Made by a program: the position numbers and the translations under genes
Part shown: positions 8,688 to 62,923 of the stretch, piece after piece
Layout of the letters: every line of letters begins with the position of its first letter
How positions within the stretch are numbered: position 1 is the first letter of the stretch
Notes under the pieces: generated by a model
What the model saw: the letters and a program-made list of their open reading frames with translations, nothing else
Database searches by the model: none
Told to the model about the DNA's origin: nothing
Assembly (NCBI RefSeq): GCF_003018255.1
Contig: NZ_CP027440.1
Length of the DNA stretch: 64,000 bases
DNA from: Escherichia coli
GTDB lineage: Bacteria > Pseudomonadota > Gammaproteobacteria > Enterobacterales > Enterobacteriaceae
Direction: 5' to 3' (one strand)

Positions 8688-8759
8688 CCTGTTGTCCCAT
8701 AACGTGTTGTTTAATTATTTGAGCCTAACTTTACCTGTGCATTCAGCAATGGGTAAAGT

Positions 8760-9065
8760 CTGGTTTATCGTTGGTTTAGTTGCCAGCAGGTATTATATCG
8801 CCATAAATGCTACGAATATTATTGGATTCTCCTTATTATTTGCGGCGCTTTTTTCACTTACCGGAGGTTATATGGAACCTGATCCCACGCCTCTCCCTCG
8901 ACGGAGATTAAAACTTTTCCGGTAAGCCCGTCTTTTCACGGCGTTACCGGATGCGTAAGGCCGTGACGTTTTAACGTCCCTGCTCAGCTTTATTACCTTC
9001 AGGTAAGGCTTCGCCACGCCTGAAGACATTTCTGTACTGTTTCAGACAGTGCGGAGGGACTCCTT
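8760..9065 (+). promoter_or_regulatory. mgtA 5' leader region (Mg2+/proline-responsive leader containing mgtL)
   Basis: Long untranslated region between treR and mgtA containing the Pro-rich mgtL mini-ORF; established K-12 regulation. Confidence 0.6.
8872..8925 (+). CDS. mgtL: mgtA leader peptide ([17 protein letters not shown])
   Basis: 17-codon proline-rich ORF at 8872-8925 upstream of mgtA. Confidence 0.7.
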
Positions 9066-11762
9066 ATGTTTAAAGAAATTTTTACCCGGTTCATTCGCCA
9101 TTTACCTTCCCGTCTGGTTCATCGCGATCCATTGCCTGGCGCGCAGCAGACAGTGAATACGGCGGTCCCGCCGTCCTTAAGTGCGCATTGCCTGAAAATG
9201 GCGGTGATGCCCGAAGAAGAATTGTGGAAAACGTTCGACACCCATCCGGAAGGATTAAATCAGGCGGAAGTGGAATCTGCCCGCGAACAACATGGTGAAA
9301 ATAAATTACCCGCACAACAACCGTCGCCGTGGTGGGTTCATTTATGGGTCTGCTATCGCAACCCCTTTAATATTTTACTCACCATTCTCGGCGCTATTTC
9401 TTACGCCACGGAAGATTTATTTGCCGCGGGCGTTATCGCGCTAATGGTCGCTATTTCTACGTTGCTGAACTTTATTCAGGAAGCACGTTCCACTAAAGCG
9501 GCAGATGCCCTGAAAGCGATGGTCAGCAATACTGCGACGGTGCTGCGCGTAATTAACGACAAAGGCGAAAATGGCTGGCTGGAGATCCCGATCGACCAAC
9601 TGGTGCCCGGCGATATTATAAAACTGGCGGCAGGGGATATGATCCCGGCAGATTTACGTATCTTGCAGGCGCGGGATCTGTTCGTCGCTCAGGCGTCGTT
9701 AACCGGTGAGTCTCTGCCCGTGGAAAAAGCCGCTACTACTCGCCAGCCGGAGCACAGCAATCCGCTGGAGTGCGACACCCTGTGTTTTATGGGCACCACC
9801 GTGGTGAGCGGTACGGCACAAGCAATGGTGATTGCCACAGGGGCCAATACCTGGTTTGGTCAACTGGCGGGGCGTGTTAGTGAGCAGGAAAGCGAGCCGA
9901 ATGCCTTTCAGCAAGGGATTAGCCGCGTCAGTATGCTGCTGATTCGCTTTATGCTGGTGATGGCTCCGGTGGTGTTGCTTATCAACGGTTACACCAAAGG
10001 CGACTGGTGGGAAGCGGCACTGTTTGCGCTTTCGGTCGCGGTAGGCTTAACGCCAGAAATGTTGCCGATGATTGTTACCTCGACGCTGGCGCGCGGCGCA
10101 GTAAAGCTGTCGAAACAGAAAGTGATCGTCAAACATCTGGATGCCATTCAGAACTTTGGCGCAATGGATATTCTGTGCACTGATAAAACCGGCACCCTGA
10201 CGCAGGACAAAATTGTGCTGGAGAATCATACCGATATCTCCGGTAAAACCAGCGAACGCGTGCTGCATAGCGCGTGGTTGAACAGTCATTACCAGACCGG
10301 ACTTAAAAACCTGCTTGATACCGCGGTGCTCGAAGGTACGGATGAAGAGTCAGCGCGTTCGCTGGCCAGCCGTTGGCAAAAAATTGATGAGATTCCGTTT
10401 GATTTCGAGCGTCGTCGGATGTCGGTGGTAGTGGCAGAAAATACCGAACACCATCAGCTGGTTTGCAAAGGTGCATTGCAGGAAATCCTCAATGTGTGTT
10501 CGCAGGTGCGTCACAATGGCGAGATTGTGCCGCTCGATGACATCATGCTGCGTAAGATTAAGCGGGTTACTGATACGCTGAATCGTCAGGGGCTGCGCGT
10601 GGTTGCGGTGGCGACGAAATACCTGCCAGCGCGTGAAGGAGATTACCAGCGGGCGGATGAATCCGACCTGATCCTCGAAGGATATATTGCTTTCCTTGAT
10701 CCGCCAAAAGAGACAACCGCTCCGGCACTGAAGGCATTAAAAGCGAGTGGAATTACCGTAAAAATCCTTACTGGCGACAGTGAGTTAGTTGCAGCGAAAG
10801 TGTGCCATGAAGTGGGGCTGGATGCGGGAGAGGTGGTCATTGGTAGTGATATTGAAACGCTATCTGACGATGAACTGGCAAATCTCGCACAGCGCACCAC
10901 GCTGTTTGCCCGCCTGACGCCGATGCATAAAGAACGCATTGTGACCTTACTGAAGCGCGAAGGGCATGTGGTTGGCTTTATGGGCGATGGTATTAATGAT
11001 GCGCCCGCCTTACGCGCTGCGGATATCGGCATTTCTGTGGACGGCGCGGTAGATATTGCCCGTGAAGCGGCTGATATCATCCTGCTGGAAAAAAGCCTGA
11101 TGGTGCTGGAAGAGGGGGTTATTGAGGGACGTCGCACTTTCGCCAACATGCTGAAATACATCAAAATGACGGCGAGTTCTAACTTCGGTAATGTGTTCAG
11201 CGTGCTGGTGGCGAGTGCTTTCTTGCCCTTCCTGCCGATGTTGCCGTTACACTTGCTTATTCAGAACTTGCTGTACGATGTGTCACAGGTGGCGATCCCG
11301 TTTGATAACGTCGACGACGAGCAAATTCAAAAGCCGCAGCGTTGGAATCCGGCGGATCTGGGGCGCTTTATGATCTTCTTCGGACCGATCAGCTCGATCT
11401 TCGATATTCTGACGTTTTGCCTGATGTGGTGGGTATTCCATGCCAACACGCCGGAAACGCAAACGCTGTTCCAGTCGGGCTGGTTTGTGGTGGGCTTACT
11501 GTCGCAAACGCTGATTGTGCATATGATCCGTACCCGTCGTGTACCGTTTATTCAGAGCTGTGCATCGTGGCCGTTAATGATCATGACCGTGATCGTGATG
11601 ATTGTCGGGATCGCATTGCCGTTTTCACCGCTGGCCAGTTATCTGCAGCTGCAGGCGCTGCCGTTAAGCTATTTCCCGTGGCTGGTTGCGATTCTGGCAG
11701 GGTATATGACGTTAACCCAGTTGGTGAAAGGGGTCTATAGCCGTCGTTACGGCTGGCAGTAA
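9066..11762 (+). CDS. mgtA: Mg2+-importing P-type ATPase
   Basis: 898 aa; DKTGTLT phosphorylation motif and GDGINDAPAL motif present. Confidence 0.95.
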   Translation: MFKEIFTRFIRHLPSRLVHRDPLPGAQQTVNTAVPPSLSAHCLKMAVMPEEELWKTFDTHPEGLNQAEVESAREQHGENKLPAQQPSPWWVHLWVCYRNPFNILLTILGAISYATEDLFAAGVIALMVAISTLLNFIQEARSTKAADALKAMVSNTATVLRVINDKGENGWLEIPIDQLVPGDIIKLAAGDMIPADLRILQARDLFVAQASLTGESLPVEKAATTRQPEHSNPLECDTLCFMGTTVVSGTAQAMVIATGANTWFGQLAGRVSEQESEPNAFQQGISRVSMLLIRFMLVMAPVVLLINGYTKGDWWEAALFALSVAVGLTPEMLPMIVTSTLARGAVKLSKQKVIVKHLDAIQNFGAMDILCTDKTGTLTQDKIVLENHTDISGKTSERVLHSAWLNSHYQTGLKNLLDTAVLEGTDEESARSLASRWQKIDEIPFDFERRRMSVVVAENTEHHQLVCKGALQEILNVCSQVRHNGEIVPLDDIMLRKIKRVTDTLNRQGLRVVAVATKYLPAREGDYQRADESDLILEGYIAFLDPPKETTAPALKALKASGITVKILTGDSELVAAKVCHEVGLDAGEVVIGSDIETLSDDELANLAQRTTLFARLTPMHKERIVTLLKREGHVVGFMGDGINDAPALRAADIGISVDGAVDIAREAADIILLEKSLMVLEEGVIEGRRTFANMLKYIKMTASSNFGNVFSVLVASAFLPFLPMLPLHLLIQNLLYDVSQVAIPFDNVDDEQIQKPQRWNPADLGRFMIFFGPISSIFDILTFCLMWWVFHANTPETQTLFQSGWFVVGLLSQTLIVHMIRTRRVPFIQSCASWPLMIMTVIVMIVGIALPFSPLASYLQLQALPLSYFPWLVAILAGYMTLTQLVKGVYSRRYGWQ

Positions 11763-32589: not shown

Positions 32590-32674
32590 GCCGAAGTGGC
32601 GAAATCGGTAGACGCAGTTGATTCAAAATCAACCGTAGAAATACGTGCCGGTTCGAGTCCGGCCTTCGGCACCA
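32590..32674 (+). tRNA. leuX: tRNA-Leu (anticodon CAA)
   Basis: 85-nt sequence GCCGAAGTGGCGAAATCGGTAGACGCAGTTGATTCAAAATCAACC...GGTTCGAGTCCGGCCTTCGGCACCA with cloverleaf arms and encoded CCA. Confidence 0.95.
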
Positions 32675-32896
32675 AGTGATGCAATAATTAGCTACCTAAG
32701 GGTGGCTTTTTTTGTGTCCATTTCCGTCCAAATTCGTCCATATCCGTTTGTAATTCAAAGGTAATTTATTTTTCCACAATAACCATATTTATTTTGTGGT
32801 CTTTCCGTGTTGGTCATTTTTCATCCATTGACATCCACGCGATTTGGGGGCCAAATTGGGGGCTTAGACGTAGTTCGATAATAGTGAGGCCCCCAA

Positions 32897-34573
32897 ATGG
32901 CACTAACAGATCGCGCTATAGTCCACGCCAAGCCTTGTGGCAAGCCGTATAAGCTCAGTGACTCGCATGGACTTTACCTGCTGGTTAACCCTAACGGTTC
33001 AAAACGCTGGTACATCAAGTACCGCTTTGTAAACAAAGAGAAAAAGCTCGCTTTAGGCCCTTATCCGCTTTTGACGCTTGCACAGGCAAGACGCATGCGT
33101 GAAGAGGCACAATTATTGCTGATTTCCGGCATCGATCCGAGTGCACGCCGAAAAGCAGAACGCCTTGCGATAACGCCGGAACATACGTTTGAGTCTGTGG
33201 CACGTGAATGGGTCACCAGTAACGTGAACTGGTCGGCGGAACATAAGAAGCGGGTGCTGCGTTATTTCGAGCTTTACGTATTCCCCACGAACGGCAGCTG
33301 TGACATCACCAAAATGAAGGTCAAAGATCTGCTGGTGCCCATCAAGGAAGTGGAGAAAGCGGGCAAACTGGATGTTGCTTCCCGGCTTCAGCAGCGCACT
33401 GCCTGCGTGATGCGCTACGCCGTCCAGAACGGCATTATCGATCATAACCCTGCATCAGATTTAACCGGCGCGGTCTCCACGCCCAAAGTACGGCATCACC
33501 CGGCGTTGGATCTGAATCTTATCCCTGATTTCCTGGAAAGAATCGACGATTACAAAGGCCGTCAACTGACTCAACTGGCGGTAAAACTGGCACTGCTGCT
33601 GTTTATCCGCTCCAGCGAACTGCGCTTTGCCCGCTGGGATGAAATTGATCTGCGTAACGCCATGTGGACCATCCCCGCTGAGCGTGAGCCGATCCCCGGC
33701 GTTAAATATTCAGCGCGTGGGGCGAAGATGCACTCCCCACACCTGGTCCCATTGTCACGTCAGGCCATCGAACTGCTGCACGAGGTGCGGCAGCATTGCC
33801 GACCGGGAACTGAACTGGTGTTCCCCGGCGATCACAATTACCGCAAGCCGATGAGTGAAAACACCATCAACAAAGCGCTGCGGGTGATGGGCTACGACAC
33901 CCAGAAAGATGTCTGTGGCCACGGTTTTCGCACTATGGCCTGTAGCGCGCTGGTGGAGTCGGGGCTGTGGTCAAGCGACGCGGTAGAGCGCCAGATGAGC
34001 CATCAGGAGCGCAAGCGCGTGCGTGCGGCGTATATCCACAAGGCGCAGCATCTCGAAGAACGTTGGGAGATGATGCAGTGGTGGGCGGATTATCTGGATG
34101 CAAACCGGTTCAGGCATGTTGTGCCGTATGGCTTCAAAAAGTCGCCGGGAGGCGCACTCGACCATATGAGTTTCCAGGAGCGCAATGACCGGCAGCTAGA
34201 GGAGCTGAAAGCCAGAATACTGGCTGACTCGGAATGGCTGACGGCGTCTGAATTATCCGCAAAAGCGGGCTTTCGTTCCGCCGATCCTGATGCTGGTCCG
34301 AAAGGCTGGAAAGCCGCCGGGAAGATATTCTCGCTGAAGGTCGATGGTGAGGATTTATACCCTGATTATGTTCTGGATGAGAAAATGCGGCCTCTCAAGG
34401 TTGTCCGTTTGATTCTTTCACTGTTTAAGGAGCGTAAAACACCGTGGGGGCTGGCTATCTGGTTTGGCTCGGCTAATCGCAGGTTGAGAGGTGGGAGGCC
34501 GAAAGACCTGCTGATTTCGAAGTCAGAGTTGGTTCTGATGGCGGCGCAGGAGGAGGTGGAGTCGGGGGAGTAG
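32897..34573 (+). CDS. P4-type tyrosine integrase with ~150-aa C-terminal extension
   Basis: 558 aa; N-terminal arm-binding region, catalytic HGFR and Tyr (AAYIH) region at ~aa 350-375; extension ends in a GGRPKDLL-type motif. Confidence 0.85.
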   Translation: MALTDRAIVHAKPCGKPYKLSDSHGLYLLVNPNGSKRWYIKYRFVNKEKKLALGPYPLLTLAQARRMREEAQLLLISGIDPSARRKAERLAITPEHTFESVAREWVTSNVNWSAEHKKRVLRYFELYVFPTNGSCDITKMKVKDLLVPIKEVEKAGKLDVASRLQQRTACVMRYAVQNGIIDHNPASDLTGAVSTPKVRHHPALDLNLIPDFLERIDDYKGRQLTQLAVKLALLLFIRSSELRFARWDEIDLRNAMWTIPAEREPIPGVKYSARGAKMHSPHLVPLSRQAIELLHEVRQHCRPGTELVFPGDHNYRKPMSENTINKALRVMGYDTQKDVCGHGFRTMACSALVESGLWSSDAVERQMSHQERKRVRAAYIHKAQHLEERWEMMQWWADYLDANRFRHVVPYGFKKSPGGALDHMSFQERNDRQLEELKARILADSEWLTASELSAKAGFRSADPDAGPKGWKAAGKIFSLKVDGEDLYPDYVLDEKMRPLKVVRLILSLFKERKTPWGLAIWFGSANRRLRGGRPKDLLISKSELVLMAAQEEVESGE

Positions 34574-53255: not shown

Positions 53256-54203
53256 ATGAGAAAAATTCTTTTCTTCCTGCTGTTGATGATAGCCGTCCTG
53301 CCGGAGGTTCAGGCCACCTGTTCGTTCTACGGTGGTGTGACATCAGAAGTATCGGGTTACCTGAATTTCGGCAACGTGGTTATCCAGCGGGATGCACAGG
53401 TCGGCAGCACGATTGCCACTGCCATTACAGGGGCATACAACAATGGCGACGGCATTGCCGGGTGTAAGCGGGAGGCCTGGACCGCCCGCTGGGAACTGAC
53501 GCAATGGGGGACGCTGAGTGGCTATGGGAATGGTGTCTACAACACCAACCTGCCAGGGGTAGGATTACGTCTGAGTGCGGCCTCGACAGGTAAAACATTG
53601 CCCTATGAAACCAGCTACGCCTACAACGCTGGCGGCACCTGGGTATCCATTCCCGGTGATGGCATCAAGGGCGAGCTTATCAAAACCGGGGATATCACCA
53701 GCGGTACATTAACGGACGGTGTGCTGGCGCGCGCTTCGGTAGTGAATCAGTTTTATTTTGCCAACGTCACGTTGAACGGGATGAACACAGTGAAATCAGA
53801 AGCTTGTACTGTGACCACGCCCTCTGTTGATGTCCCGATGGGGGATCACGATAAAAGCGAATTCAGTGGTGCGGGATCTTCAACCGACTGGGTGAGCTTT
53901 GATATTGGTTTGAGCTGCGATGTCGGGGCGAGAATAAACGTACGTATCGATGCCACTGCGGATGCTTCCGCCGGTTCGCAAGGCGTCATGCTGATTGATA
54001 GCGGCGGGGCGTCTGGCGTGGGGATACAACTTCATTACCGCCCGGATGATGCCGCTGTCCAGTACGGTCAGGAACGGTTTTACTGGCAGTCGGTATATGG
54101 TGACGAGATCGTGCAGCTTAAGGCGCGATATTACCAGACTGCAGGCTCGATCACGCCAGGTGCGGCAAACGGTACGGCGACGTTTACGATGAGTTATAAA
54201 TAG
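53256..54203 (+). CDS. Fimbrial adhesin-like two-domain subunit (paralogue 2)
   Basis: 315 aa; C-terminal half aligns with paralogue 1 (…QLKARYYQTA…ATFT.SYK), N-terminal half diverged. Confidence 0.7.
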   Translation: MRKILFFLLLMIAVLPEVQATCSFYGGVTSEVSGYLNFGNVVIQRDAQVGSTIATAITGAYNNGDGIAGCKREAWTARWELTQWGTLSGYGNGVYNTNLPGVGLRLSAASTGKTLPYETSYAYNAGGTWVSIPGDGIKGELIKTGDITSGTLTDGVLARASVVNQFYFANVTLNGMNTVKSEACTVTTPSVDVPMGDHDKSEFSGAGSSTDWVSFDIGLSCDVGARINVRIDATADASAGSQGVMLIDSGGASGVGIQLHYRPDDAAVQYGQERFYWQSVYGDEIVQLKARYYQTAGSITPGAANGTATFTMSYK

Positions 54204-54214
54204 CGCGTAATCAT

Positions 54215-55762
54215 ATGGAATATTCTATGTCGGATATTGTCGCCGGGAACAGGATTGCTGCTCAATATTTAAGAATGTCTACCGAGCATCAGAAATATTC
54301 GCCGGAGAACCAGCGGGAATATATCGAGAAGTATGCAAAAGAACACTGTATTACCATTAAATATACCTATGACGACGCTGGCCGAAGTGGGCTGAGCCTG
54401 GATAACAGGCCTGGCCTGCGTTCGCTGTTATATGATGTTGAAAACGGAATAATAAAAGTCTCGTTAATTCTTGTTTACGATGTCAGTCGGTTTGGTCGTT
54501 TTCAGGATATTGAAGAGGCTGCTCATTACTCGTGGCTACTGAAGCGTAATGGTGTGCGCATTATTTATTGCGCGGAGCCTTTCTCGGAAGAACAGACCGA
54601 ATTGTTTATGCTGGGATTATCTTACTCCCGCTATGGCGCCGCAACTTACAGTAAAAACCTTTCACAAAAAGTTTTTCTTGGCCAGGCAAACCTCGTTCGG
54701 CGGGGTTATTATCAAGGTGGTATGCCTGGCTATGGCATTCGGAGATTATTAATTGATGAACATACTAATCCGAAAGGCATGCTTCTGCCGGGGCAAAGGA
54801 AAAGCCTGCAAACTGACAGAGTAATATTGATCCCGGGGCCCGCGGAAGAGGTGGTAATAGTCAATAAAATCTATGACATGTTTATTGATGAGGGCAAGCC
54901 TGAGTTTGTTATTGCTTCAGAACTGAACCGGAAGAACATCCCCGCCGAGAATGGGCTCCAGTGGAGCCGATGTAAAATTCATCAGATACTGACCAATGAA
55001 AAATATATTGGCAATAATGTTTATAACAGAACCTCCGGACGATTGAAGACCCGAAGTGTCAGGAATCCTCAGGATCAGTGGATCAGATGTGACGGCGCGT
55101 GGGACCCTGTGGTATCAGTAGAGAAATTTGAGGCGGCTAAAAGGATTATTGAAGCCAGGGCCGTTCAGTACAGTGATGATGAACTGCTGGATAAACTACG
55201 CCATCTGCTGAAGCTTCGTGGCAGATTATCCGGGATTGTGATTGATGAAGAGGAACTGTTTCCATCGAGCAGCATTTTTCGTTCACGGTTTGGTGGGTTA
55301 GTCAGGGCTTACACCCTTATTGGTTATCACCCGCGCCATGATTACTCTTATCTTGAAATAAAAAAGCAGATTGCAGAATGCCATCTCACTTTCATGGATA
55401 ATTTGGTGCAGGATATATACCGATATGGCGGTTGGGCAGAGATGCATCAGGATGGTTCATTATATATTAATGATGAGTTTTTTGTTTCCGCTAATCTGGT
55501 TCGCTGCCAACGTTTGTCGTCAGGTAAGCTTCGTTGGAAGATAAAATTTAATGTATCCCATTATTGTGATGTCATGATCTTTCCACGGTTGGATAGCACA
55601 AATAACTCCGTGGTTGATTACTTTATGTTTCCGGCTATTGATGTGTTGTATAACGATTTAACGCTTCATGAGAACAATGGTTTTATCCTCGAACTATATC
55701 GATTTGATGATTTGTCATGTCTGGAAAATCTTGTAAAACGAACTGGTCTGGAGAGTAAATAA
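54215..55762 (+). CDS. Large serine recombinase
   Basis: 515 aa; N-terminal resolvase catalytic motif YLRMSTEHQ; starts 11 nt after adhesin stop. Confidence 0.8.
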   Translation: MEYSMSDIVAGNRIAAQYLRMSTEHQKYSPENQREYIEKYAKEHCITIKYTYDDAGRSGLSLDNRPGLRSLLYDVENGIIKVSLILVYDVSRFGRFQDIEEAAHYSWLLKRNGVRIIYCAEPFSEEQTELFMLGLSYSRYGAATYSKNLSQKVFLGQANLVRRGYYQGGMPGYGIRRLLIDEHTNPKGMLLPGQRKSLQTDRVILIPGPAEEVVIVNKIYDMFIDEGKPEFVIASELNRKNIPAENGLQWSRCKIHQILTNEKYIGNNVYNRTSGRLKTRSVRNPQDQWIRCDGAWDPVVSVEKFEAAKRIIEARAVQYSDDELLDKLRHLLKLRGRLSGIVIDEEELFPSSSIFRSRFGGLVRAYTLIGYHPRHDYSYLEIKKQIAECHLTFMDNLVQDIYRYGGWAEMHQDGSLYINDEFFVSANLVRCQRLSSGKLRWKIKFNVSHYCDVMIFPRLDSTNNSVVDYFMFPAIDVLYNDLTLHENNGFILELYRFDDLSCLENLVKRTGLESK

Positions 55763-56649
55763 TGAAATCTTTTGATGAACAGATAGAACTTGTCGATATC
55801 AGTGATATTTATATCGCAAATCCACGGAAAAGGAATAAATTCATTCATAATGAAATAAAAGAGAACATAAAAACCATTGGTCTGAAACGGCCTGTTAGCG
55901 TGCGCCCAGTGAATAATGAAAACTATAAATATGCCCTGATTTGTGGTCAGGGACGACTTGAAGCGTATATTGAGTATGGTGAAACGAAAATTCCTGCAAT
56001 CATCAAGCAGGTTGATGAAGAGACAGCGCACCTGATGAGCCTGGCTGAAAACATCGCAAGACGTAATCCCCGGGCGGCAGAGCTAATGGAAGATATCAGA
56101 AGAATGAAGACCAGTGGCCTGACCGATCGTGAAATAGGCTTGCGGCTTGGGTATAATTCGAGTTGGGTAAATGGGGTGATCACTCTGTTGTCATCCGGAG
56201 AGAAGCATCTTTTGCGGGCATTTGAGACTGGCGATATTCCCTTGTATCTTGCTGTGGAAATATCCCGGTCAGGAGATGAGGAAACTCAGGAACTGCTGAC
56301 GGTCGCCCTGAAAGAAGGACATATCAAGGGTGGGCAAATTAATAAGATCAGGCGCATACTTGAACAACGTAAGAAAGGCGATAAAGGTACGATTAGTACG
56401 GCTTTTTTTCCTGGGAAAAAACAGAAAAAACTGACCCCGGAAGAACTGGCTAATGTCTACCAGGAAAACATTAATGAGCAAAAAGCCATTCTGCTGAAAT
56501 CCACAATGGTTAAAGAGAAAATTCTGGCAGTAAAGCAAATATTTGGTTATTTACTTAAAGATAATGATTTTGTTACATTGCTGCACAGTAATAATATCCA
56601 CGATATTCCTTCTTTACTGGATGGCAGTGATGTATCGGGGGAGAAATAA
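55762..56649 (+). CDS. ParB-like protein (ParB/Srx N-domain plus HTH)
   Basis: PVSVRPV...ICGQGRLEA...IPAIIK...ENIARRN pattern resembles ParB boxes; TAATG overlap with recombinase. Confidence 0.7.
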   Translation: MKSFDEQIELVDISDIYIANPRKRNKFIHNEIKENIKTIGLKRPVSVRPVNNENYKYALICGQGRLEAYIEYGETKIPAIIKQVDEETAHLMSLAENIARRNPRAAELMEDIRRMKTSGLTDREIGLRLGYNSSWVNGVITLLSSGEKHLLRAFETGDIPLYLAVEISRSGDEETQELLTVALKEGHIKGGQINKIRRILEQRKKGDKGTISTAFFPGKKQKKLTPEELANVYQENINEQKAILLKSTMVKEKILAVKQIFGYLLKDNDFVTLLHSNNIHDIPSLLDGSDVSGEK

Positions 56650-56650
56650 G

Positions 56651-57541
56651 ATGATTTCACAATGTTTTGACTCCCGATTTTATACCTTTAAGGTGGAATC
56701 ACTGGTGTATGCCAGAACGCTGCCGGTTAATGTTAAATTCAGTACGAAGTACAAACAAATTAAAGCCTCTGTCGATGAAATTGGGTTAATTGAACCCATT
56801 GTGGTTTATATCAATGACGCCAATGATAAAGTCATTCTGGATGGACATCTTCGCGTTGAAGTTTTGAAAGAACTCGGAATAACTACTGCTCATTGTCTGA
56901 TATCCCCTGTGGAGGATACATATTCATATAACAAACGTGTTAGTCGCCTTACCATTGTGCAGGCCCAAAACATGCTGCTTAAAGCGGTTGAATCTGGCGT
57001 TTCAGTTGAAAAACTATGCGCCGTACTGGGTGTCACGCCAGATACGCTGATTGGTAAACTGAAAATTTCTGATGGCATTGCCCCTGAAGTCATGGCGTTA
57101 CTGGCAGAAAAAAATGTACCGCAGACCATTTTCTCTGTGTTGAAAAAACTAAAGTTCTATAAGCAGATAGAAATGGTTAACACCATGATCAGTATTAATA
57201 ATTTCACCCGCAAATTTGCGATGTCGATGCTGCATGCCGTTGCCCCTGAACATCTTGTAGCGCCTAAAAAAGATGCCAGCAGAGAAACAGATATCAGAAA
57301 AAATCTCGAAAGACTGGAAAAAGAAATGGCTTCCGTTCAGGTGGAAACGCAGCATCTTCAGGATGAATATGCTGAGAATAACCTTCGGCTGGTTATCATT
57401 AAAAATCACATTGAACGTCTGCTGGCGAACGGTCAGGTACTTAACTGGCTTTATGATAACCATCAGGAGTACCTTTCTGTGCTCAAGCAAATCTCGGGGC
57501 TGGATGATTTGAATAAGCTTGGCCAGACAATTGAGGAATGA
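56651..57541 (+). CDS. ParB-like protein, second paralogue
   Basis: Start ATG 56651 with GGGGGAG RBS, 1 nt after previous stop; VILDGHLRVEVLKELG ParB/Srx-like motif. Confidence 0.6.
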   Translation: MISQCFDSRFYTFKVESLVYARTLPVNVKFSTKYKQIKASVDEIGLIEPIVVYINDANDKVILDGHLRVEVLKELGITTAHCLISPVEDTYSYNKRVSRLTIVQAQNMLLKAVESGVSVEKLCAVLGVTPDTLIGKLKISDGIAPEVMALLAEKNVPQTIFSVLKKLKFYKQIEMVNTMISINNFTRKFAMSMLHAVAPEHLVAPKKDASRETDIRKNLERLEKEMASVQVETQHLQDEYAENNLRLVIIKNHIERLLANGQVLNWLYDNHQEYLSVLKQISGLDDLNKLGQTIEE

Positions 57542-57740
57542 CACATTTTTAAAGCAAGGACTGCTGTTTTACAGATTGCCACTATGATGGGATGCACTGA
57601 GAGAGGAGGGCGTGCTGGTGGTTGACGTGATTCAACTGGTGCGGAAAATCTTGCTCAAAGGACGATGGCTTAAAATCAAGTTGCTGTTTCAAAAATGAAA
57701 AAGTAGATTTACATCCACTTTTCTTACTGAGGTAAAAATA

Positions 57741-58199
57741 GTGCATATAGATGCGGATTTCATAAGCTTGAGCACATTGGTGGCTAATCAACAAGCTGCA
57801 AAATGGGCGGGGGTTGCTGCTATTGCTGCCTGTTTGACGTTTGTTGTGACAACGATAGGTTTACTACTTGCTTGGCGGTCGTTGCATCAGTGGAAGCCTC
57901 AATACAAAGAAAACTCTAGACTTCTCCTAATCGAAGCTTTAATCGCATTTCAGAAATGTTTAATAACTATACCAAAAAATCTCGATAACGATCCCACCTA
58001 TCAAAGCCGAAAGGAATTTTTGAAGGCAAGTACTGAAGTTGAGCTAAGAGGACAAATATATCTTAAGCAACACAGCAACGAAAAATTAAAAGATGAATTA
58101 GCAAATCTCAGGAGTAAATGTGCAGAATTTGTTGGTGGTAAGGTGACTAAACCTGAACTGTCATTCATCTCAGCAATAATATTACTCATTGAAGTATAA
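57741..58199 (+). CDS. Hypothetical small membrane protein (152 aa, GTG start)
   Basis: AT-rich ORF with one predicted TM helix (AAIAACLTFVVTTIGLLLAW). Confidence 0.4.
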   Translation: MHIDADFISLSTLVANQQAAKWAGVAAIAACLTFVVTTIGLLLAWRSLHQWKPQYKENSRLLLIEALIAFQKCLITIPKNLDNDPTYQSRKEFLKASTEVELRGQIYLKQHSNEKLKDELANLRSKCAEFVGGKVTKPELSFISAIILLIEV

Positions 58200-58301
58200 T
58201 AGATTCTGGGCTAACACCAATCGGTTACCCGGTTGGGATATCGCTTCCGGGTAACCTGTGGAAAGGCAAAAGCCACTCCACAGGTTGCCCGAGCATATCG
58301 A

Positions 58302-59093
58302 TTACATGTTTGCGTCTTTATTTAACGCATATTGCCAGTTAGCTGCATCCAGCTTTCTCAGCAACGCGCAAAGCACATCCACCAGACAGGCGAGGATCCG
58401 CTGGCCTTTTTCCGCCGTGGCGCAGCGCGGATCGCCGGTTGCTCCGGTGGCGCTGATTTCCCCGATATCCCAGATCCGGTTCACGCCATAATCAGCGAAC
58501 ACCTCCACCGGGATCTGTTTCTGCGCATATTTCAGTTCCACCAGCTCCGGAATCAGCGCCATCATGACGGACGTTTCGCCCTCGCCGCCGTGTCCTAGTC
58601 CGGTGTTATCCCATGAGTCGAAAAATCCCTTCCCGAGATGATGTCCCACCAGATCCCACCACGCCGGAACCACGACAATCGCTGCCTGCGTATGTCGGGC
58701 CTTCACATTGCGGGCGGCGATTTCAATCGCCGGAATATTACCGTCATGGCCGTTAATCACCAGGATCCGGCGAATACCGTGGTGCAGCAGGCTGATGAAG
58801 ATATCTTCCGCCAGCGCGATATTGGTCTCGTAGCGTAGGGTGACCGCCAGTGGATAGGCATTGTAGTGAACGGATGTGCCGAACGGCGTGCAGGGCAGCA
58901 CAAGGGTATTATCCACCCGCTGCGCCACCCGGCAGGCGACGATTTCGGGTACAAACATATCGGGGCCGAGTGGCAGGTGATCGGCGTGGTTCTCACAACT
59001 GCCGAAGTTGACGATAGCAGTGAGTTCCTTACCAGACTGCAACAGCTCGCGGATTTCCCGGCCAGTCAGTTCATTGAGCATGACTTTTTTCAT
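58302..59093 (-). CDS. Creatininase (creatinine amidohydrolase) family protein
   Basis: Product recognised as creatininase-fold family; start MKKVMLNELTG; overlaps permease stop. Confidence 0.65.
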   Translation of the reverse strand: MKKVMLNELTGREIRELLQSGKELTAIVNFGSCENHADHLPLGPDMFVPEIVACRVAQRVDNTLVLPCTPFGTSVHYNAYPLAVTLRYETNIALAEDIFISLLHHGIRRILVINGHDGNIPAIEIAARNVKARHTQAAIVVVPAWWDLVGHHLGKGFFDSWDNTGLGHGGEGETSVMMALIPELVELKYAQKQIPVEVFADYGVNRIWDIGEISATGATGDPRCATAEKGQRILACLVDVLCALLRKLDAANWQYALNKDANM

Positions 59094-60429
59094 CGGACAG
59101 CCTCCTGTTTTTTCGGACGACAAAGATGTAGTACGCGCTGGCGAGGGCCAGCCAGATCAGGACGGTAACCAGGGTAATGCCGCCGCCGTCGGTGAAAAAT
59201 TGCCCGGCCATGATCAGCGCAATCAGCCCCACGGTGAGTGGCTGGATGTAGCGGGCGGCCGGAGCCTTGTATTTCAGCGTTCCGTCGTGCAGGGCTATTC
59301 GGTGCAGGGTGGGCTGGCTTAAGGCAATCATCAGCCAGGTGAACAGAAAGCCGAATCCGGAAATCCCGGCGAGGATGACATACGCATCTGGCGAGAGAAT
59401 GGCGATGATGACGCCGGTAAACAGCACCAGGCTGCTGGCAAGAATGGCGTTATCCGGTGTTTTATGTGCCGGGTGCAGGCGGGCAAACCAGGCCGGGAAA
59501 TAGCCGTCAGACGCCATGGCGTGCAGCATCCGCGAGGTGGCGTAAACCCCGGTATCGATGCAGGAGAGCGCGGCGGTCAGCACCACAAAGTTCATGATAT
59601 GCCGCGCCATATGGCCACCGAGAATGCCGGAAGCTTCGACATACGGGCTGCTGCTGACACCTGCCTGCTGCCAGGGGAGAACGAGCAGCAGAACGGTCAA
59701 TGAGCCGACATACAGCAACAGGATCCGCACCACGGTGCCACGCAGCGTACGAGGAATATCACGCTGTGGGTTCTCGCTTTCACCCGCGGCGGTGCCGATG
59801 GCCTCTGTCCCGCCGAAAGAGAAAATCACCATTAACATCGCGCCGAGAAATCCGGGCAGCCCGCCAGCAAAAAAGCTGCCGCTGTCGGTCGGATGACTGA
59901 TGCTGGCGGGTGAGGCGTTATCCAGTCCCAGGCTGTAGCAGCCCGCGACGATAAAGGCCAGCAGCGCCACGACTTTCACCAGGCTCAGCCAGAACTCCAC
60001 TTCACCGAAAAAATGAACGCCGACCATGTTGATGGCAGTCAGCGACGAAGCGATCACCAGGCAAAACAGCCAGACGGGGACTCCGGGAAACCACAGGTTC
60101 AGGAAGGTGCCTGCAGCGATGGCCTCCGACGCCGGGCCAATCAGGAAGGCCAGCCAGTAGGTCCACCCGGTGATAAAGCCACACCATGGGCCAAAGGCGG
60201 TGCGGGCATAGGATTCAAAGGAACCGGAGACGGGCCTGGCGACCGCCATTTCGGCAAGCAACAGCATAATGAACAGGGTGATGACACCGCCGATAAGGTA
60301 GGCCAGCACCACCGACGGCCCGGTACGGGCAATGGCCGCGCCTGCGCCGAGGAAAAATCCGGCACCAATCACGCCTCCCACGGAAATCATCGTCAGGTGA
60401 CGGGCTTTCAGACTTCTGTTGAGTTCCAT
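59071..60429 (-). CDS. APC-family amino acid permease
   Basis: 452 aa multi-TM protein, start MELNRSLKARHLTMISVGGVIGAGFF. Confidence 0.8.
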   Translation of the reverse strand: MELNRSLKARHLTMISVGGVIGAGFFLGAGAAIARTGPSVVLAYLIGGVITLFIMLLLAEMAVARPVSGSFESYARTAFGPWCGFITGWTYWLAFLIGPASEAIAAGTFLNLWFPGVPVWLFCLVIASSLTAINMVGVHFFGEVEFWLSLVKVVALLAFIVAGCYSLGLDNASPASISHPTDSGSFFAGGLPGFLGAMLMVIFSFGGTEAIGTAAGESENPQRDIPRTLRGTVVRILLLYVGSLTVLLLVLPWQQAGVSSSPYVEASGILGGHMARHIMNFVVLTAALSCIDTGVYATSRMLHAMASDGYFPAWFARLHPAHKTPDNAILASSLVLFTGVIIAILSPDAYVILAGISGFGFLFTWLMIALSQPTLHRIALHDGTLKYKAPAARYIQPLTVGLIALIMAGQFFTDGGGITLVTVLIWLALASAYYIFVVRKNRRLSDEKSHAQ

Positions 60430-60472
60430 AATGTCTTCTCTTTTGTTGTTGTGGATGGATTCAAGGCAGCGC

Positions 60473-60847
60473 TTATGGCCGTCCCTCCTCAATCAGCAGT
60501 TCACCGTACAGGTCGTGAAGTTTAGGGATTGGGCCGGAGAGATGAACGGCTCCCGAATGGCAGGCATTCAGGCTGCCGTTAAACACCATGGTCAGGTGGC
60601 CAAGTTCAAACAAAGACTGCTGTGCCTCTTTACCCACGGCGGTCACCAGGTAGTCATGGCTCGCCAGCAGCAGCCGATCGCCGGGCAGGATCAGCAGGTC
60701 GTCTTCGCGGAATGAGGGTTCCAGCGACAGGGAATAGTCCAGGCAGTCTTTCGGTCCGTTGCTGTCAAAGGTGATAAGCGTCCTGTCTGCCAGTCCGTCG
60801 GCGACAAACAGCCCGATAGCAACGATGCGTGCGCAGTAGGTCATCAT
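60473..60847 (-). CDS. Hypothetical protein (124 aa), first gene of permease/creatininase operon
   Basis: ORF immediately upstream of permease on same strand. Confidence 0.4.
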   Translation of the reverse strand: MMTYCARIVAIGLFVADGLADRTLITFDSNGPKDCLDYSLSLEPSFREDDLLILPGDRLLLASHDYLVTAVGKEAQQSLFELGHLTMVFNGSLNACHSGAVHLSGPIPKLHDLYGELLIEEGRP

Positions 60848-61065
60848 GGCTCGTTCTCCCGTTTGTCGGGCATGAGAGTACGGCCTGGTGTAGGTGAGCA
60901 GGCATGTAGCCTGAATAGGTGAATAAAGCCTTCAGTCCGGGAGGCCGGGTGAAGGTGGCCTCCGGTTGTAAGAGCGATGGAGCAAGGGTGTGGTTCGGTG
61001 TGCATAAACAACTCTCCTGTCAGGTGTCGTTGATTAATGCGTCCTGCCACTCACAGCGCGGGTCG

Positions 61066-61341
61066 TTATGTCCCGGAGTTTTCTGTTGTTGTCATGAGGT
61101 GAAGCGGTTTACGGGGTTCACGTTTATTTCCCGTATTGAGGTAACGTTCCGGCCAGATTTCTGACGGATGCTTTCCCAGCGCAATGGCAATCAGCCACTC
61201 ACCTTTCGGCCACGGTCGGTTCAGGGCATTCGCCAGCGTTGACGAGGCCAGTCCCGCTTCCCGCGAGAGTTTCGCCAGACTGGTGCCGCGCTTGTGTAAG
61301 GCGGCAATGATATCGGCGGGGTGCCAGTCTTTTTTAGTCAT
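61066..61341 (-). CDS. Nlp/Ner-family DNA-binding protein
   Basis: WHPADIIAALHKRGTSLAKLSREAGLASSTLANALNRPWPKGEWLIA resembles E. coli Nlp and phage Mu Ner. Confidence 0.75.
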   Translation of the reverse strand: MTKKDWHPADIIAALHKRGTSLAKLSREAGLASSTLANALNRPWPKGEWLIAIALGKHPSEIWPERYLNTGNKREPRKPLHLMTTTENSGT

Positions 61342-61448
61342 TCCGTTTACCTCTATTGTTGACTATGAGTCACGAATGTATGCTAGCACGCTTTTTATGT
61401 GACTCATAGTCCGTGGACTGATAATCAACGAAGATTGATGCTGGCTAG

Positions 61449-61712
61449 ATGGAAAAGACGGGATCAATCAAAAAGGTACTGGGTAAAAGAATCAGGGCTC
61501 TACGCCGTGAGATGGACCTATCCCAGGAAGCTTTAGCCGACAAATGCGGTATCGATCGCACCTATATGAGTGGAATTGAGCGAGGAGTAAGGAACCCCAC
61601 GCTTGTTGTCATTTGTGCAATCTCGGACGGTCTGGGGATGGATCTTAGCCATTTATTTATGTTTGACGATGGCGCAGAAAAGGACGCCGAATCAACGAAG
61701 TGTGACTCATAG
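61449..61712 (+). CDS. XRE-family HTH regulator (paralogue A)
   Basis: 87 aa; HTH segment LSQEALADKCGIDRTYMSGIERGVRNPT. Confidence 0.7.
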   Translation: MEKTGSIKKVLGKRIRALRREMDLSQEALADKCGIDRTYMSGIERGVRNPTLVVICAISDGLGMDLSHLFMFDDGAEKDAESTKCDS

Positions 61713-61751
61713 TCCGTGGTCTGATAGACAACGTAAGTTCATTTTATCTGG

Positions 61752-61976
61752 ATGAAAAATACATCCAGTATTCAGGCGCAGTTTGGCGCACATCTCAAAA
61801 AACTCAGACTCCAGTCGGGCCTGTCTCAGGAAGCATTCGCGGATAAGTGTGGTCTCGATCGTACTTATGTGAGCGGTATTGAGCGGGGAGTAAGGAATCC
61901 AACCCTTGAGGTGATAAGTGTTTTAGGAAAAGGGTTGGACATGGACATCAAAGAATTATTCAACTTTGAAAGATAG
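61752..61976 (+). CDS. XRE-family HTH regulator (paralogue B)
   Basis: 74 aa; near-identical HTH segment LSQEAFADKCGLDRTYVSGIERGVRNPT. Confidence 0.7.
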   Translation: MKNTSSIQAQFGAHLKKLRLQSGLSQEAFADKCGLDRTYVSGIERGVRNPTLEVISVLGKGLDMDIKELFNFER

Positions 61977-61978
61977 GT

Positions 61979-62923
61979 TTATCTATTAGTAGCAACTCTA
62001 TCCGCAGCAGTACGGGTAACTTGATTTCCAACATCCCAGCCGTTTTCATCTGGGAGTGACATCCCATCCATTGGCATTAGGATAAAACCACCAATAGTTG
62101 GTCCAAATGACTCAGTAGTGTTAATTCCTGCATAGCTTGTTCTGATAATATTTTCATTCAAATTGGTCAAAAATGATATTCGAGTACCAAGTGGGTGCGC
62201 GGTTACCATTTGGATGTATCCACCAATAGTATTGACTGTTTCTTGGTTAATCCAATTATTCAAAGCAATAAACGGGGTACGCCACCAATTTATTGTGTTA
62301 GGAGTAAATTGTTGCCTGGTATTCTCTATAAACTCATTAAGTTCATGCAAGTTATCACCTAATAAAACAGGTCTGCCTGTTGATAAATTTTGAATATCTT
62401 CAATCTGGAGGTTGGCTGGGTGCTCAATAGAGTTATTGAGTTTTATAATTTTGTAGGTTTGTGTTCTCCAGCAAAAACCAAAAATTATCATCTGTATTCT
62501 TACTGCTTGGGGAAAGGATTGGCCGATATCAGACATATATTGCTCGGCAATATTTTTTGCTAATGAAGCTATTTCATTAAGACTTGGGAATGCTTCGGTC
62601 GATATTTGTTGTTCTGGATTATTGTTCGCAATCTCATGAAGTCTTGCTAATGATACTGCAAGCATTTCTTTGACATTAATTCCAATCATTGTACTTCCTG
62701 CAAATCCGAAGCCAAATTCGAATATTTTTTGCGGGTGAATTCGATAAACGTCCGAAGAGCGAATAACTGATACGGGGATTGAGAATAATTTCGGACAATG
62801 GTCAGTTAGTCTGCTATTTTGCTGAGTGATTCTTGAGTCGCTGACTGCCCAAATACTATCGCTTTCCTCTCTATTAAACCAACATGCAATTGCGGTCATA
62901 AGGTTTTTCCAGTTATTTAACAT
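61979..62923 (-). CDS. Hypothetical protein (314 aa), AT-rich
   Basis: Long ORF in low-GC DNA convergent with the XRE pair; no recognised motif. Confidence 0.5.
   Translation of the reverse strand: MLNNWKNLMTAIACWFNREESDSIWAVSDSRITQQNSRLTDHCPKLFSIPVSVIRSSDVYRIHPQKIFEFGFGFAGSTMIGINVKEMLAVSLARLHEIANNNPEQQISTEAFPSLNEIASLAKNIAEQYMSDIGQSFPQAVRIQMIIFGFCWRTQTYKIIKLNNSIEHPANLQIEDIQNLSTGRPVLLGDNLHELNEFIENTRQQFTPNTINWWRTPFIALNNWINQETVNTIGGYIQMVTAHPLGTRISFLTNLNENIIRTSYAGINTTESFGPTIGGFILMPMDGMSLPDENGWDVGNQVTRTAADRVATNR

What the first reader, a model, noticed from the sequence alone, without database searches (positions are those of the whole stretch)
58302..60847. Cargo operon: hypothetical protein, APC permease, creatininase-family amidohydrolase
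Three minus-strand genes with overlapping or near-overlapping boundaries form a likely uptake-plus-hydrolysis unit for a cyclic amide/creatinine-like substrate, carried on the island. A 10-bp perfect hairpin (GGTTACCCGG...CCGGGTAACC, about 58224-58256) lies at its 3' end.
Basis: inference. Interest (0 to 1): 0.2.

Follow-up and report, generated by a model that had tools for sequence, protein, structure and literature searches.

The report
Transporter-plus-hydrolase cargo with orphan PTS gene
The three genes are real and sit on a conjugative island in E. coli, but they are a patchwork: an uptake-plus-hydrolysis gene pair of unknown substrate (creatinine is not supported) joined behind the regulator and one surviving gene of a sugar-transport operon. 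This is ordinary cargo with one mildly curious feature.

Summary
Three intact minus-strand genes occupy 58302-60847, on an integrative conjugative element (ICE) inserted at tRNA-Leu in E. coli JNE23-011 (100% identity). The hairpin is real.

- The "hypothetical protein" is an EIIA(Gut)-family PTS protein (PF03829).
- It is 81% identical to the IIA of a Salmonella/E. coli gut-like PTS operon (IIC-IIA-IIB-oxidoreductase).
- The Ner-like regulator, the 5' region and a ~100-bp IIC remnant come from that same operon. IIB and the oxidoreductase were replaced by the permease-hydrolase pair.
- The same four-gene mosaic occurs in ICEs from at least three other sources (Enterobacter, a Klebsiella-type variant, one unnamed).
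- The orphan IIA is under purifying selection there (dN/dS about 0.1), while IIC decayed.

The hydrolase keeps all creatininase metal ligands and the catalytic His. It fails the creatininase equivalog cut-off (97 vs 235 bits) and lacks four creatinine-contacting residues. Its subfamily is widespread and usually follows a transporter gene: NCS1, APC, Liv-type ABC or MetNIQ-type ABC. So "uptake plus hydrolysis" is supported, but the substrate is unknown.

The hairpin lies in a 787-bp segment found in only 2 of 5426 E. coli genomes and has no U-tract.

Of 43 E. coli carriers, 36 lack most of the unit; in the one truncated locus I inspected an IS150 abuts the breakpoint. Interest is low to moderate.

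The parts
58302..59093 (-). Creatininase-family (PF02633) metal-dependent hydrolase, 263 aa. The last 9 codons lie in the strain-specific segment.
   Evidence: Pfam E=2.8e-57. It is below the TIGR04448, MftE and IolN cut-offs. Metal ligands and the catalytic His align to P. putida creatininase 1J2T and are invariant in 13 subfamily members. RBS AGGAGG lies 7 nt upstream of the ATG.
59071..60429 (-). APC-superfamily amino-acid-type permease (AAT family), 452 aa.
   Evidence: PF00324 E=2.8e-100. The best NCBIfam hits are GABA permease, ProY and MmuP, all far below their equivalog cut-offs. It is 64-67% identical to permeases paired with the hydrolase in Yersinia, Citrobacter and metagenome loci, and 87% in C. 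braakii.
60473..60847 (-).
   Evidence: PF03829 E=2.4e-23. It is 38% identical to E. coli SrlB and 81% identical to the IIA of the Salmonella pS2122_1 gut-like PTS operon. dN/dS is 0.09-0.15 among four mosaic lineages.
60848..60955 (-). Remnant of a PTS IIC(Gut) gene. About 47 nt of the 5' end (start codon lost) and 14 nt of the 3' end remain; about 457 nt are deleted.
   Evidence: blastn blocks against L011 and the alignment with Salmonella, A31 and Enterobacter.
60844..61005 (-). 53-codon ORF. It fuses a conserved short upstream ORF to the IIC remnant and ends in an ATGA overlap with the IIA start. Function unknown.
   Evidence: A comparable small ORF is called in L023 and L107.
61066..61341 (-). 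Ner-like winged-HTH regulator (PF13693 HTH_35), same strand, upstream. It is inherited together with the PTS-operon 5' region.
   Evidence: Pfam E=8.2e-36. It is 87% identical to the regulator next to the Salmonella gut-like PTS operon and is conserved in every mosaic locus.
61361..61411 (.). 13-bp perfect inverted repeat (GACTATGAGTCAC / GTGACTCATAGTC) between the divergent Ner-like and HTH_3 genes. It is a candidate operator.
   Evidence: Its function is inferred only.
58223..58291 (.). Two overlapping hairpins (58223-58256 and 58248-58291) in the 102-bp gap between convergent genes. There is no U-tract on either strand.
57543..58329 (.). Strain-specific replacement segment, about 42% GC. 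It carries a 152-aa ORF (57741-58199, +), the hairpins and the 3' tip of the hydrolase gene.
   Evidence: Homology with ICE variant A31 stops at 57542 and resumes at 58330. The hairpin part is found in 2 of 5426 E. coli genomes. No plasmid match. GC profile.

Best explanation
This is a mosaic cargo module on a leuX-inserted, PFL_4703/PAPI-type integrative conjugative element.

Working core. The core is a two-gene uptake-plus-hydrolysis unit.
- An APC (amino-acid-type) permease imports a small nitrogen-containing compound.
- A binuclear-metal hydrolase of the creatininase fold then opens or deacylates it in the cytoplasm. The product is presumably one that core metabolism can use.
- The substrate is unknown, and creatinine is not specifically supported.

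How it was assembled. The pair was recombined into a gut-like PTS operon (Ner-like regulator, IIC, IIA, IIB, oxidoreductase).
- It replaced IIB and the oxidoreductase about 10 nt past the IIA stop codon.
- IIC was later deleted.
- The pair is therefore probably expressed from the PTS operon's regulator and 5' region, as a unit of Ner-like regulator, small ORF, IIA, permease and hydrolase.

The orphan IIA. It has stayed intact under purifying selection in four diverged ICE lineages, so it probably still does something. Most plausibly it couples permease or operon activity to PTS phosphorylation state.

The hairpins. The downstream hairpins are a strain-specific, terminator-like structure at a convergent gene junction. 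They are not part of the conserved module.

Shown: gene identities, mosaic junctions, synteny, residue conservation and selection. Inferred: co-transcription, transport direction, the chemistry and any IIA regulatory role.
For: Family assignments.

ICE context.

Mosaic.
- Window 60475-60861 and 60909-61332 match the Salmonella pS2122_1 PTS locus at 80-87% DNA identity, with about 457 nt of IIC missing between them.
- The alignments show the lost IIC start codon and the junction just after the IIA stop.
- The intact donor-type operon exists in 134 E. coli genomes.

The pair as a unit.
- Permease plus hydrolase occur without IIA or Ner in metagenome-assembly loci L004-L006 (organism not shown), Citrobacter, Yersinia, C. 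braakii and Edwardsiella.
- In 80 genome loci the hydrolase follows an NCS1 transporter in 31 and an APC permease in 2. It follows Liv-type ABC genes in about 10 and sits inside a MetQ/N/I-type ABC operon in 2.

Catalytic residues are conserved.

Module conservation and selection.
- The same Ner-IIA-permease-hydrolase arrangement, with identical spacing, occurs in L022, L107 and L109.
- dN/dS is 0.09-0.15 for IIA, 0.06-0.09 for the permease and 0.08-0.15 for the hydrolase, at dS 0.2-0.8. The mosaic IIAs form a clade.
- The IIC remnant has shrunk further in Enterobacter.
Against: - There is no expression or biochemical evidence.
- No sigma-70-like promoter was found on the minus strand between 60848 and 61450 by the simple scan.
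- 36 of the 43 E. coli carriers lack most of the unit, with a shared breakpoint in the permease. An IS150 abuts that breakpoint in the one locus inspected. Selection for the module in E. coli therefore looks weak.
- The ICE integrase in this strain is annotated as truncated.
- IIA dS exceeds permease dS between some lineages (0.52 vs 0.17). Part of the low IIA dN/dS could therefore reflect recombination with PTS-context alleles.
- Which histidine of EIIA(Gut) is phosphorylated could not be established. The two invariant His residues (H84, H102) are kept, but the position aligned to SrlB H43 is not.
Confidence: 0.6

Rival explanations
1. It is a genuine creatinine-utilisation unit. The permease imports creatinine and the enzyme is a true creatininase (EC 3.5.2.10) that makes creatine.
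For: - PF02633 membership and all metal and catalytic residues are conserved.
- In other phyla the partner transporter is CodB-like NCS1 (191 bits to the cytosine permease model).
- From my memory only, known creatinine clusters include codB-like permeases, and several hosts of the subfamily live in urine or gut, where creatinine is abundant (Morganella, Campylobacter, Lachnospiraceae).
Against: - It scores 97.5 bits against the 235-bit cut-off of TIGR04448 and is only about 30% identical to the P. putida enzyme.
- The S78 loop is deleted, and Y121, E122 and W174 are replaced.
- No creatinase gene lies in any of the loci inspected. Creatine would be a dead end that releases no nitrogen in E. 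coli (established knowledge).
- Other 'creatininases' have turned out to be formamidases (BrbF, PMC9478397), peptidases (MftE) or C-C hydrolases (IolN).
- The enterobacterial partner is an amino-acid-type permease.
Confidence: 0.15
2. The IIA gene is a functionless hitch-hiker, kept only because it lies between the promoter and the useful genes. The real unit is two genes.
For: - Its cognate IIC is deleted and IIB replaced.
- The closest pair-only loci work without it.
- It overlaps the upstream small ORF in an ATGA arrangement, so it could merely provide translational or transcriptional continuity.
Against: - The ORF is intact in all five mosaic sequences analysed, with dN/dS 0.09-0.15 at dS 0.5-0.8. 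That is as constrained as the hydrolase.
- Over the same period the adjacent IIC remnant lost its start codon and was further deleted.
- A neutral 375-bp ORF would be expected to pick up stops or frameshifts at that divergence.
Confidence: 0.3
3. In E. coli the module is decaying, selectively irrelevant baggage of the ICE.
For: - It is present in only 43 of 5426 complete genomes. In 36 of them the hydrolase and the permease 3' end are gone, with an IS150 at the breakpoint in the locus inspected.
- Edwardsiella relatives have truncated permeases.
- The 3' tip of the hydrolase gene has been replaced here.
- The ICE integrase is truncated.
Against: - In this window all four genes are intact with good ribosome-binding sites.
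- Purifying selection is evident across ICE lineages.
- The replaced C-terminal tail lies in a region that is naturally variable in the subfamily.
- The truncated copies share one breakpoint, so they may reflect a single event.
Confidence: 0.25
4. The hairpin is the operon's intrinsic terminator.
For: It lies 11-79 nt downstream of the stop codon and forms a very stable structure in the transcript sense (z=-5.2). Convergent genes meet there.
Against: - There is no U-run after either stem on either strand, and the terminator scan does not pick it up.
- It is absent from every other version of the module, which has different downstream DNA.
Confidence: 0.3

Closest known systems
Pseudomonas putida creatinine amidohydrolase (CrnA; PDB 1J2T, 1V7Z, 3A6x)
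   Same: Same Pfam family (PF02633) and similar length. The binuclear-metal ligands E34, H36, D45, H120 and E183 and the catalytic H178 all align to identical residues.
   Different: - PDB match E about 1e-22, roughly 30% identity.
- Fails the TIGR04448 equivalog cut-off.
- The S78 loop is absent and Y121, E122 and W174 are replaced.
- It has subfamily-specific motifs: NGHDGN, GLGHGGEGETS and PAWW.
- It is coupled to a transporter, not to a creatinase.
Other characterised creatininase-fold enzymes: BrbF/ArfB formamidases, MftE peptidase, IolN hydrolase
   Same: Same fold and family. They show that 'creatininase' annotation does not predict the substrate (PMC9478397; NCBIfam hits).
   Different: Scores against the MftE and IolN models are far below their cut-offs (93.7 vs 172; 69 vs 245). 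Those enzymes sit in biosynthetic or inositol clusters, not behind a transporter.
Gut-like PTS operon of Salmonella pS2122_1 and E. coli 118UI (Ner-like regulator, IIC, IIA, IIB, Gfo/Idh/MocA oxidoreductase)
   Same: The Ner-like regulator is 87% identical and the IIA 81% identical. The intergenic region is 87% identical at DNA level. The IIA RBS and ATGA overlap are kept.
   Different: IIC is reduced to about 60 nt of remnants. IIB and the oxidoreductase are replaced by the permease and hydrolase.
E. coli SrlB, the EIIA of the glucitol/sorbitol PTS
   Same: PF03829 domain, same length, 38% identity. The ELGH and VH(V/L)xGP motifs are conserved.
   Different: No adjacent IIB or IIC. Below the NCBIfam SrlB cut-offs (77.7 vs 165). 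The position aligned to SrlB H43 is not His.
Regulatory EIIA proteins without a sugar permease (EIIA-Ntr; Brucella EIIA-Man-like; R. leguminosarum PTS-Ntr control of ABC transporters)
   Same: They are a precedent for EIIA proteins that control non-PTS transporters or enzymes rather than phosphorylating a sugar (abstracts of PMC2937029 and PMC3665714).
   Different: They belong to different EIIA families. No such role is known for the Gut-type EIIA, and none was tested here.
PAPI-1/pKLC102/ICEEc2-type integrative conjugative elements
   Same: Conjugation genes of the TIGR03745-03758 / PFL_4703 set, a MobH relaxase and insertion next to a tRNA gene. ICEEc2 is the described E. coli member of this family (PMC6761156).
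   Different: Insertion here is at tRNA-Leu(CAA), not tRNA-Phe. The integrase is annotated as truncated. Identity with ICEEc2 was not tested.

Membership tests
Creatininase family (Pfam PF02633) | Full-length match above the Pfam gathering score | tested here: met
   194.3 bits against a 31.3 cut-off, profile positions 2-238 of 238.
Creatininase family (Pfam PF02633) | Binuclear metal ligands (E34, H36, D45, H120, E183 in P. putida numbering) and catalytic H178 | tested here: met
   They align to E34, H36, D45, H116, E173 and H168. These residues are invariant in 13 subfamily sequences. The roles of the residues are from my memory of Yoshimoto et al. 2004.
True creatininase, EC 3.5.2.10 (NCBIfam TIGR04448 equivalog) | Score at or above the curated equivalog cut-off | tested here: not met
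   97.5 bits against a 235 cut-off.
True creatininase, EC 3.5.2.10 (NCBIfam TIGR04448 equivalog) | Creatinine-contacting residues S78, Y121, E122, W154 and W174 | tested here: not met
   The S78 loop is deleted. Y121 is D, E122 is G and W174 is T. Only W154/D155 are kept. The residue list is from memory.
True creatininase, EC 3.5.2.10 (NCBIfam TIGR04448 equivalog) | Genomic association with creatinase or sarcosine catabolism | tested here: not met
   None in the window or in about 20 inspected loci.
True creatininase, EC 3.5.2.10 (NCBIfam TIGR04448 equivalog) | Creatinine-to-creatine activity | not testable with these tools
   Needs an enzyme assay.
APC superfamily, amino acid transporter (AAT) family | PF00324 match across about 12 transmembrane segments | tested here: met
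   336.7 bits, residues 11-417.
APC superfamily, amino acid transporter (AAT) family | Equivalog-level match to a transporter of known substrate | tested here: not met
   The best is GABA permease TIGR01773, 343.6 against a 678 cut-off. All other hits are also below their cut-offs.
PTS EIIA(Gut) (PF03829, SrlB-like) | Domain match above the gathering score | tested here: met
   82.6 bits against a 25 cut-off. It is 38% identical to SrlB.
PTS EIIA(Gut) (PF03829, SrlB-like) | Conserved phospho-accepting histidine | tested here: inconclusive
   H84 and H102 are invariant across 12 sequences including SrlB. The position aligned to SrlB H43 is Leu, and is also not His in the IIA of the intact Salmonella operon. 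I could not establish which His is the acceptor.
PTS EIIA(Gut) (PF03829, SrlB-like) | Encoded together with cognate IIC and IIB components | tested here: not met
   IIC is reduced to remnants and IIB is absent. The host's own srlAE was not checked in this strain.
ICE cargo (PAPI-1/pKLC102-type ICE) | Located between conjugation modules of an element inserted at a tRNA gene | tested here: met
   Annotated TIGR037xx/PFL_4703 genes, TraD, conjugative ATPase, TraG and a MobH relaxase flank it. tRNA-Leu lies at 32590-32674.
ICE cargo (PAPI-1/pKLC102-type ICE) | Intact integrase, and so a currently mobile element | tested here: not met
   RefSeq annotates the integrase at 32898-34145 as incomplete, missing its C-terminus.
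Intrinsic (Rho-independent) terminator | GC-rich stem followed by a U-tract | tested here: not met
   The stems are present but there is no T-run on either strand, and the scan does not report it.

The most novel reading that the evidence does not exclude
The Gut-type EIIA has been co-opted as a stand-alone PTS sensor. It would gate a non-PTS amino-acid-type permease, or the Ner-like regulator, according to its phosphorylation state. Uptake and hydrolysis of an as-yet-unknown nitrogen compound would then be tied to sugar availability. The module would also mark a widespread, uncharacterised, transporter-coupled clade of creatininase-fold hydrolases with a new substrate.
Probability: 0.2. Interest if true: 0.55.

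Novelty: new member of a known kind. Interest (0 to 1): 0.27.

Why it matters
Taken at face value this is routine accessory cargo, already auto-annotated in RefSeq. Two points give it modest value.

- The "creatininase" label is probably misleading. The protein belongs to a large, phylogenetically broad subfamily (Bacillota, Campylobacter, Synergistota, Treponema, Enterobacterales, Thermoproteota and Nitrososphaeria archaea). In most related loci the gene sits directly behind a transporter gene, and four different transporter classes fill that role. This is a clean target for substrate discovery, and the 'creatininase-like' genes noted in ammonia-oxidising archaea may belong to the same subfamily (not tested).
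- The locus is a dated natural experiment. After IIC and IIB were lost, a Gut-type EIIA stayed under purifying selection next to a non-PTS permease. That is a testable lead for a regulatory role of an EIIA family not known to have one.

Tried and rejected
- Riboswitch or leader search. Rfam at gathering thresholds on seven related loci found only a tRNA, so no ligand clue came from it.
- Literature. I searched for PF02633, creatininase family plus NCS1, creatininase plus permease plus operon, and creatininase-like or homolog terms. No characterisation of this subfamily turned up. The useful result was that BrbF, annotated as a creatininase, is a formamidase. A search for the SrlB phosphorylation site did not settle which His is the acceptor. 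The ICEEc2 paper is not held.
- Origin of the 787-bp hairpin segment. There is no DNA or protein match in the plasmid collection, and only 2 E. coli genomes carry it. It is not a repeated REP- or MITE-like element in E. coli.
- Promoter scan. No minus-strand sigma-70-like site was found in 57600-61800, so the promoter is not located.
- Hairpin as chance. I considered and rejected this. The local fold has z=-5.2 and such repeats are about tenfold enriched in the window. A single 10-bp repeat would not be significant alone.
- IIA as a native partner of the pair. I considered and rejected this. Pair-only loci lack it, and it is 81% identical to an IIA embedded in a complete PTS operon.
- Structure prediction. 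I did not run it. It would confirm the fold but would not identify the substrate.
Full report
**Where the window comes from.** The region is 100% identical to the chromosome of E. coli JNE23-011 and JNE112863. In the RefSeq annotation, conjugation genes of an integrative conjugative element (ICE) flank it. These include TIGR03745-03758 and PFL_4703 family proteins, a conjugative ATPase, TraD, TraG and a MobH relaxase. The element starts next to tRNA-Leu(CAA) at 32590-32674. Its integrase is annotated as truncated. "Carried on the island" is therefore correct.

**The observation.**
- ORF listing and RefSeq agree on three intact minus-strand genes: 58302-59093, 59071-60429 and 60473-60847.
- Pfam assigns them to Creatininase (E=2.8e-57), AA_permease (E=2.8e-100) and PTSIIA_gutA (E=2.4e-23).
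- The hydrolase start overlaps the permease end by 23 bp and has an AGGAGG ribosome-binding site.

**The hairpin.**
- Perfect 10-bp arms lie at 58223-58232 and 58247-58256.
- They are part of a larger structure. A second hairpin (58248-58291, 20 bp, 85% complementary) shares the central arm.
- The transcript-sense RNA folds at -47.3 kcal/mol, z=-5.2.
- Perfect 10-bp inverted repeats are about tenfold enriched in the window (19 against 1.6 +/- 1.3 in shuffles).
- Neither stem is followed by a T-run on either strand, and the terminator scan does not report it.
- Comparison with ICE variant A31 shows homology stopping at 57542 and resuming at 58330. The intervening 787 bp holds a 152-aa ORF with no Pfam hit, the hairpins and the last 9 codons of the hydrolase gene.
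- In A31 a PaiB-like gene replaces this segment. Only 2 of 5426 E. coli genomes carry the hairpin DNA, and no plasmid record matches it.
- The hairpin is therefore real but strain-specific. It sits at a convergent gene junction and is not a conserved operon element.

**The unit is a mosaic.**
- A Salmonella IncHI2 plasmid (pS2122_1) and 134 E. coli genomes carry this operon: Ner-like regulator, IIC, IIA, IIB, Gfo/Idh/MocA oxidoreductase.
- Window 60909-61332 matches that locus at 87% DNA identity. This block covers the Ner-like gene, the intergenic region and the first 47 nt of IIC.
- Window 60475-60861 matches at 80%. This block covers IIA plus the last 14 nt of IIC.
- About 457 nt of IIC are missing between the two blocks.
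- The alignment shows that the IIC start codon is destroyed. A conserved short upstream ORF is now fused through the remnant and ends in an ATGA overlap with the IIA start.
- Homology with the PTS operon ends about 10 nt after the IIA stop, inside what was the IIB start. The permease begins 43 nt downstream of the IIA stop.
- GC content rises from about 42% in the flanks to 55-61% across the module.

**The permease-hydrolase pair is an independent unit.**
- Homologues at 64-68% identity occur as an adjacent pair without IIA or Ner. This holds in metagenome-assembly loci whose organism is not shown (L004-L006), in Citrobacter and in Yersinia.
- C. braakii carries the pair at 87% (permease) and 78% (hydrolase) identity. 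Edwardsiella carries the hydrolase at 88-89% with a truncated permease. Neither has IIA or Ner.

**The hydrolase subfamily is transporter-coupled.** Homologues at 41-57% identity are widespread. Among 80 genome loci:

| Partner next to the hydrolase gene | Loci |
|---|---|
| CodB-like NCS1 transporter directly upstream | 31 |
| APC permease directly upstream | 2 |
| Liv-type ABC transporter genes upstream (Thermoproteota, Desulfobacterota, Atribacterota) | about 10 |
| Hydrolase inside a MetQ/MetN/MetI-type ABC operon | 2 |

- About 10 mostly Lachnospiraceae loci add a type I asparaginase gene; a GntR regulator was seen in four loci (three of them with the asparaginase).
- In Acetobacterium the gene lies next to a glutamine-amidotransferase-like gene. 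I judged the neighbouring genes to be cobalamin-synthesis genes by eye only.
- No riboswitch was found.
- Replacement of the transporter class next to a conserved hydrolase is strong contextual evidence for "import, then hydrolyse".

**What the hydrolase is and is not.**
- Aligned to P. putida creatininase, the metal ligands and the catalytic histidine are all present. They are invariant in 13 subfamily members.
- The protein scores 97.5 bits against a 235-bit cut-off on the creatininase equivalog, and it is also below the MftE and IolN cut-offs.
- The S78 loop is deleted, and Y121, E122 and W174 become D, G and T.
- No creatinase is nearby. Creatine would be a dead end in E. coli (established knowledge).
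- Published work shows that another annotated "creatininase" is in fact a formamidase (PMC9478397).
- I therefore regard the substrate as unknown. It is a small amide, lactam, ureide or N-acyl compound whose product is probably an ordinary metabolite. Creatinine remains possible at roughly 15%.

**The orphan IIA.**
- The same arrangement, with identical gene spacing, occurs in ICEs from Enterobacter hormaechei, a Klebsiella aerogenes-type variant and another source. The arrangement is: Ner-like gene, small ORF, IIA, permease, hydrolase.
- DNA downstream of the hydrolase and upstream of the regulatory (HTH) genes differs in each.
- The shared IIA-permease junction indicates a single origin.
- Among the mosaic lineages, IIA has dN/dS 0.09-0.15 at dS 0.5-0.8. 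That is comparable to the permease (0.06-0.09) and the hydrolase (0.08-0.15). The mosaic IIAs form a clade apart from PTS-context IIAs.
- Meanwhile the IIC remnant has shrunk further in Enterobacter.
- This argues that IIA is retained for a function. A regulatory link to PTS phosphorylation state is the most plausible, by analogy with other stand-alone EIIA proteins (abstracts), but it is untested.
- Caveats:
  - IIA dS exceeds permease dS between some lineages, so the histories may differ.
  - The phospho-acceptor His could not be identified. H84 and H102 are invariant, while the SrlB H43-equivalent is not conserved even in intact operons.

**Population picture.**
- Only 43 of 5426 complete E. 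coli genomes carry any part of the module. Seven have it whole.
- The other 36 share a breakpoint in the permease. In the one truncated locus I inspected (strain D7), an IS150 sits at that breakpoint.
- This suggests weak selection in E. coli, or a single propagated event.

**Verdict.**
- This is an ordinary class of thing: accessory uptake-plus-hydrolysis cargo on an ICE, already auto-annotated.
- It is a new member of that class, because the hydrolase subfamily is uncharacterised.
- It has a mosaic origin and a retained orphan EIIA(Gut).
- Interest is low to moderate (0.27).

Noticed in passing
window 57741-58199 (+), within segment 57543-58329: A 152-aa ORF with one predicted hydrophobic segment and no Pfam hit. 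It lies in a segment present in only 2 of 5426 E. coli genomes and has no plasmid match. In ICE variant A31 a PaiB-like gene occupies this position instead.
   Followed up: partly
window 61361-61411: A 13-bp perfect inverted repeat (GACTATGAGTCAC ... GTGACTCATAGTC) between the divergent Ner-like gene and an HTH_3 gene. It is a likely operator of one of these regulators.
   Followed up: no
window 61979-62923 (-): A 314-aa protein with no Pfam hit. In other ICE variants different genes occupy this slot: a RES-domain protein (A31, Enterobacter), an N6-methylase/SLFN-like protein (L107) or a GNAT acetyltransferase (L109). This looks like a variable hot spot, possibly for defence or toxin genes.
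   Followed up: no
window 32590-34145: The ICE abuts tRNA-Leu(CAA). Its tyrosine integrase is annotated as a truncated pseudogene, so the element may be immobilised in this strain.
   Followed up: no
window about 47444-54203: The ICE carries a chaperone-usher fimbrial operon preceded by a tyrosine-type DNA invertase and a 367-bp gap. Perfect 10-bp inverted repeats lie at 48042-48077 and 48160-48192. This may be a fimS-like invertible promoter switch.
   Followed up: no
L003 (E. coli D7) 8585-11159, corresponding to window about 59271: An IS150 insertion/deletion removes the hydrolase gene, the permease 3' end, the ParB/RepB genes and part of the fimbrial usher. Thirty-six of 43 E. coli carriers share the same breakpoint.
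   Followed up: partly
window 60844-61005 (-); L011 about 9050-9120: A short ORF (MHTEPxPC...) with its own GGAG ribosome-binding site is conserved upstream of IIC in the intact Salmonella PTS operon and in all mosaic loci. It could be a leader peptide. In the window a 1-nt deletion fuses it to the IIC remnant.
   Followed up: partly
L022, L107, L109 versus the window (IIA and permease genes): Between some mosaic lineages the synonymous divergence of IIA is about three times that of the adjacent permease (for example 0.52 vs 0.17). This hints at separate recombination histories or strong codon bias in the permease.
   Followed up: no
L105 (E. coli 118UI) 8505-8879: In this intact gut-like PTS operon the IIA reading frame has a stop at codon 5, and RefSeq annotates a shorter protein from a downstream start.
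   Followed up: no
window 54227-57541: A large serine recombinase followed by two tandem, overlapping ParB/RepB-like genes lies immediately next to the module. This block is 99.4% identical to ICE variant A31, against about 96% for the module itself.
   Followed up: no
L004, L007, L020 upstream of the permease: In pair-only enterobacterial loci the permease is preceded by 460-970 bp of AT-rich DNA with no called gene. The sequences align poorly with each other, and Rfam finds nothing in L004 or L007 (L020 was not searched).
   Followed up: partly
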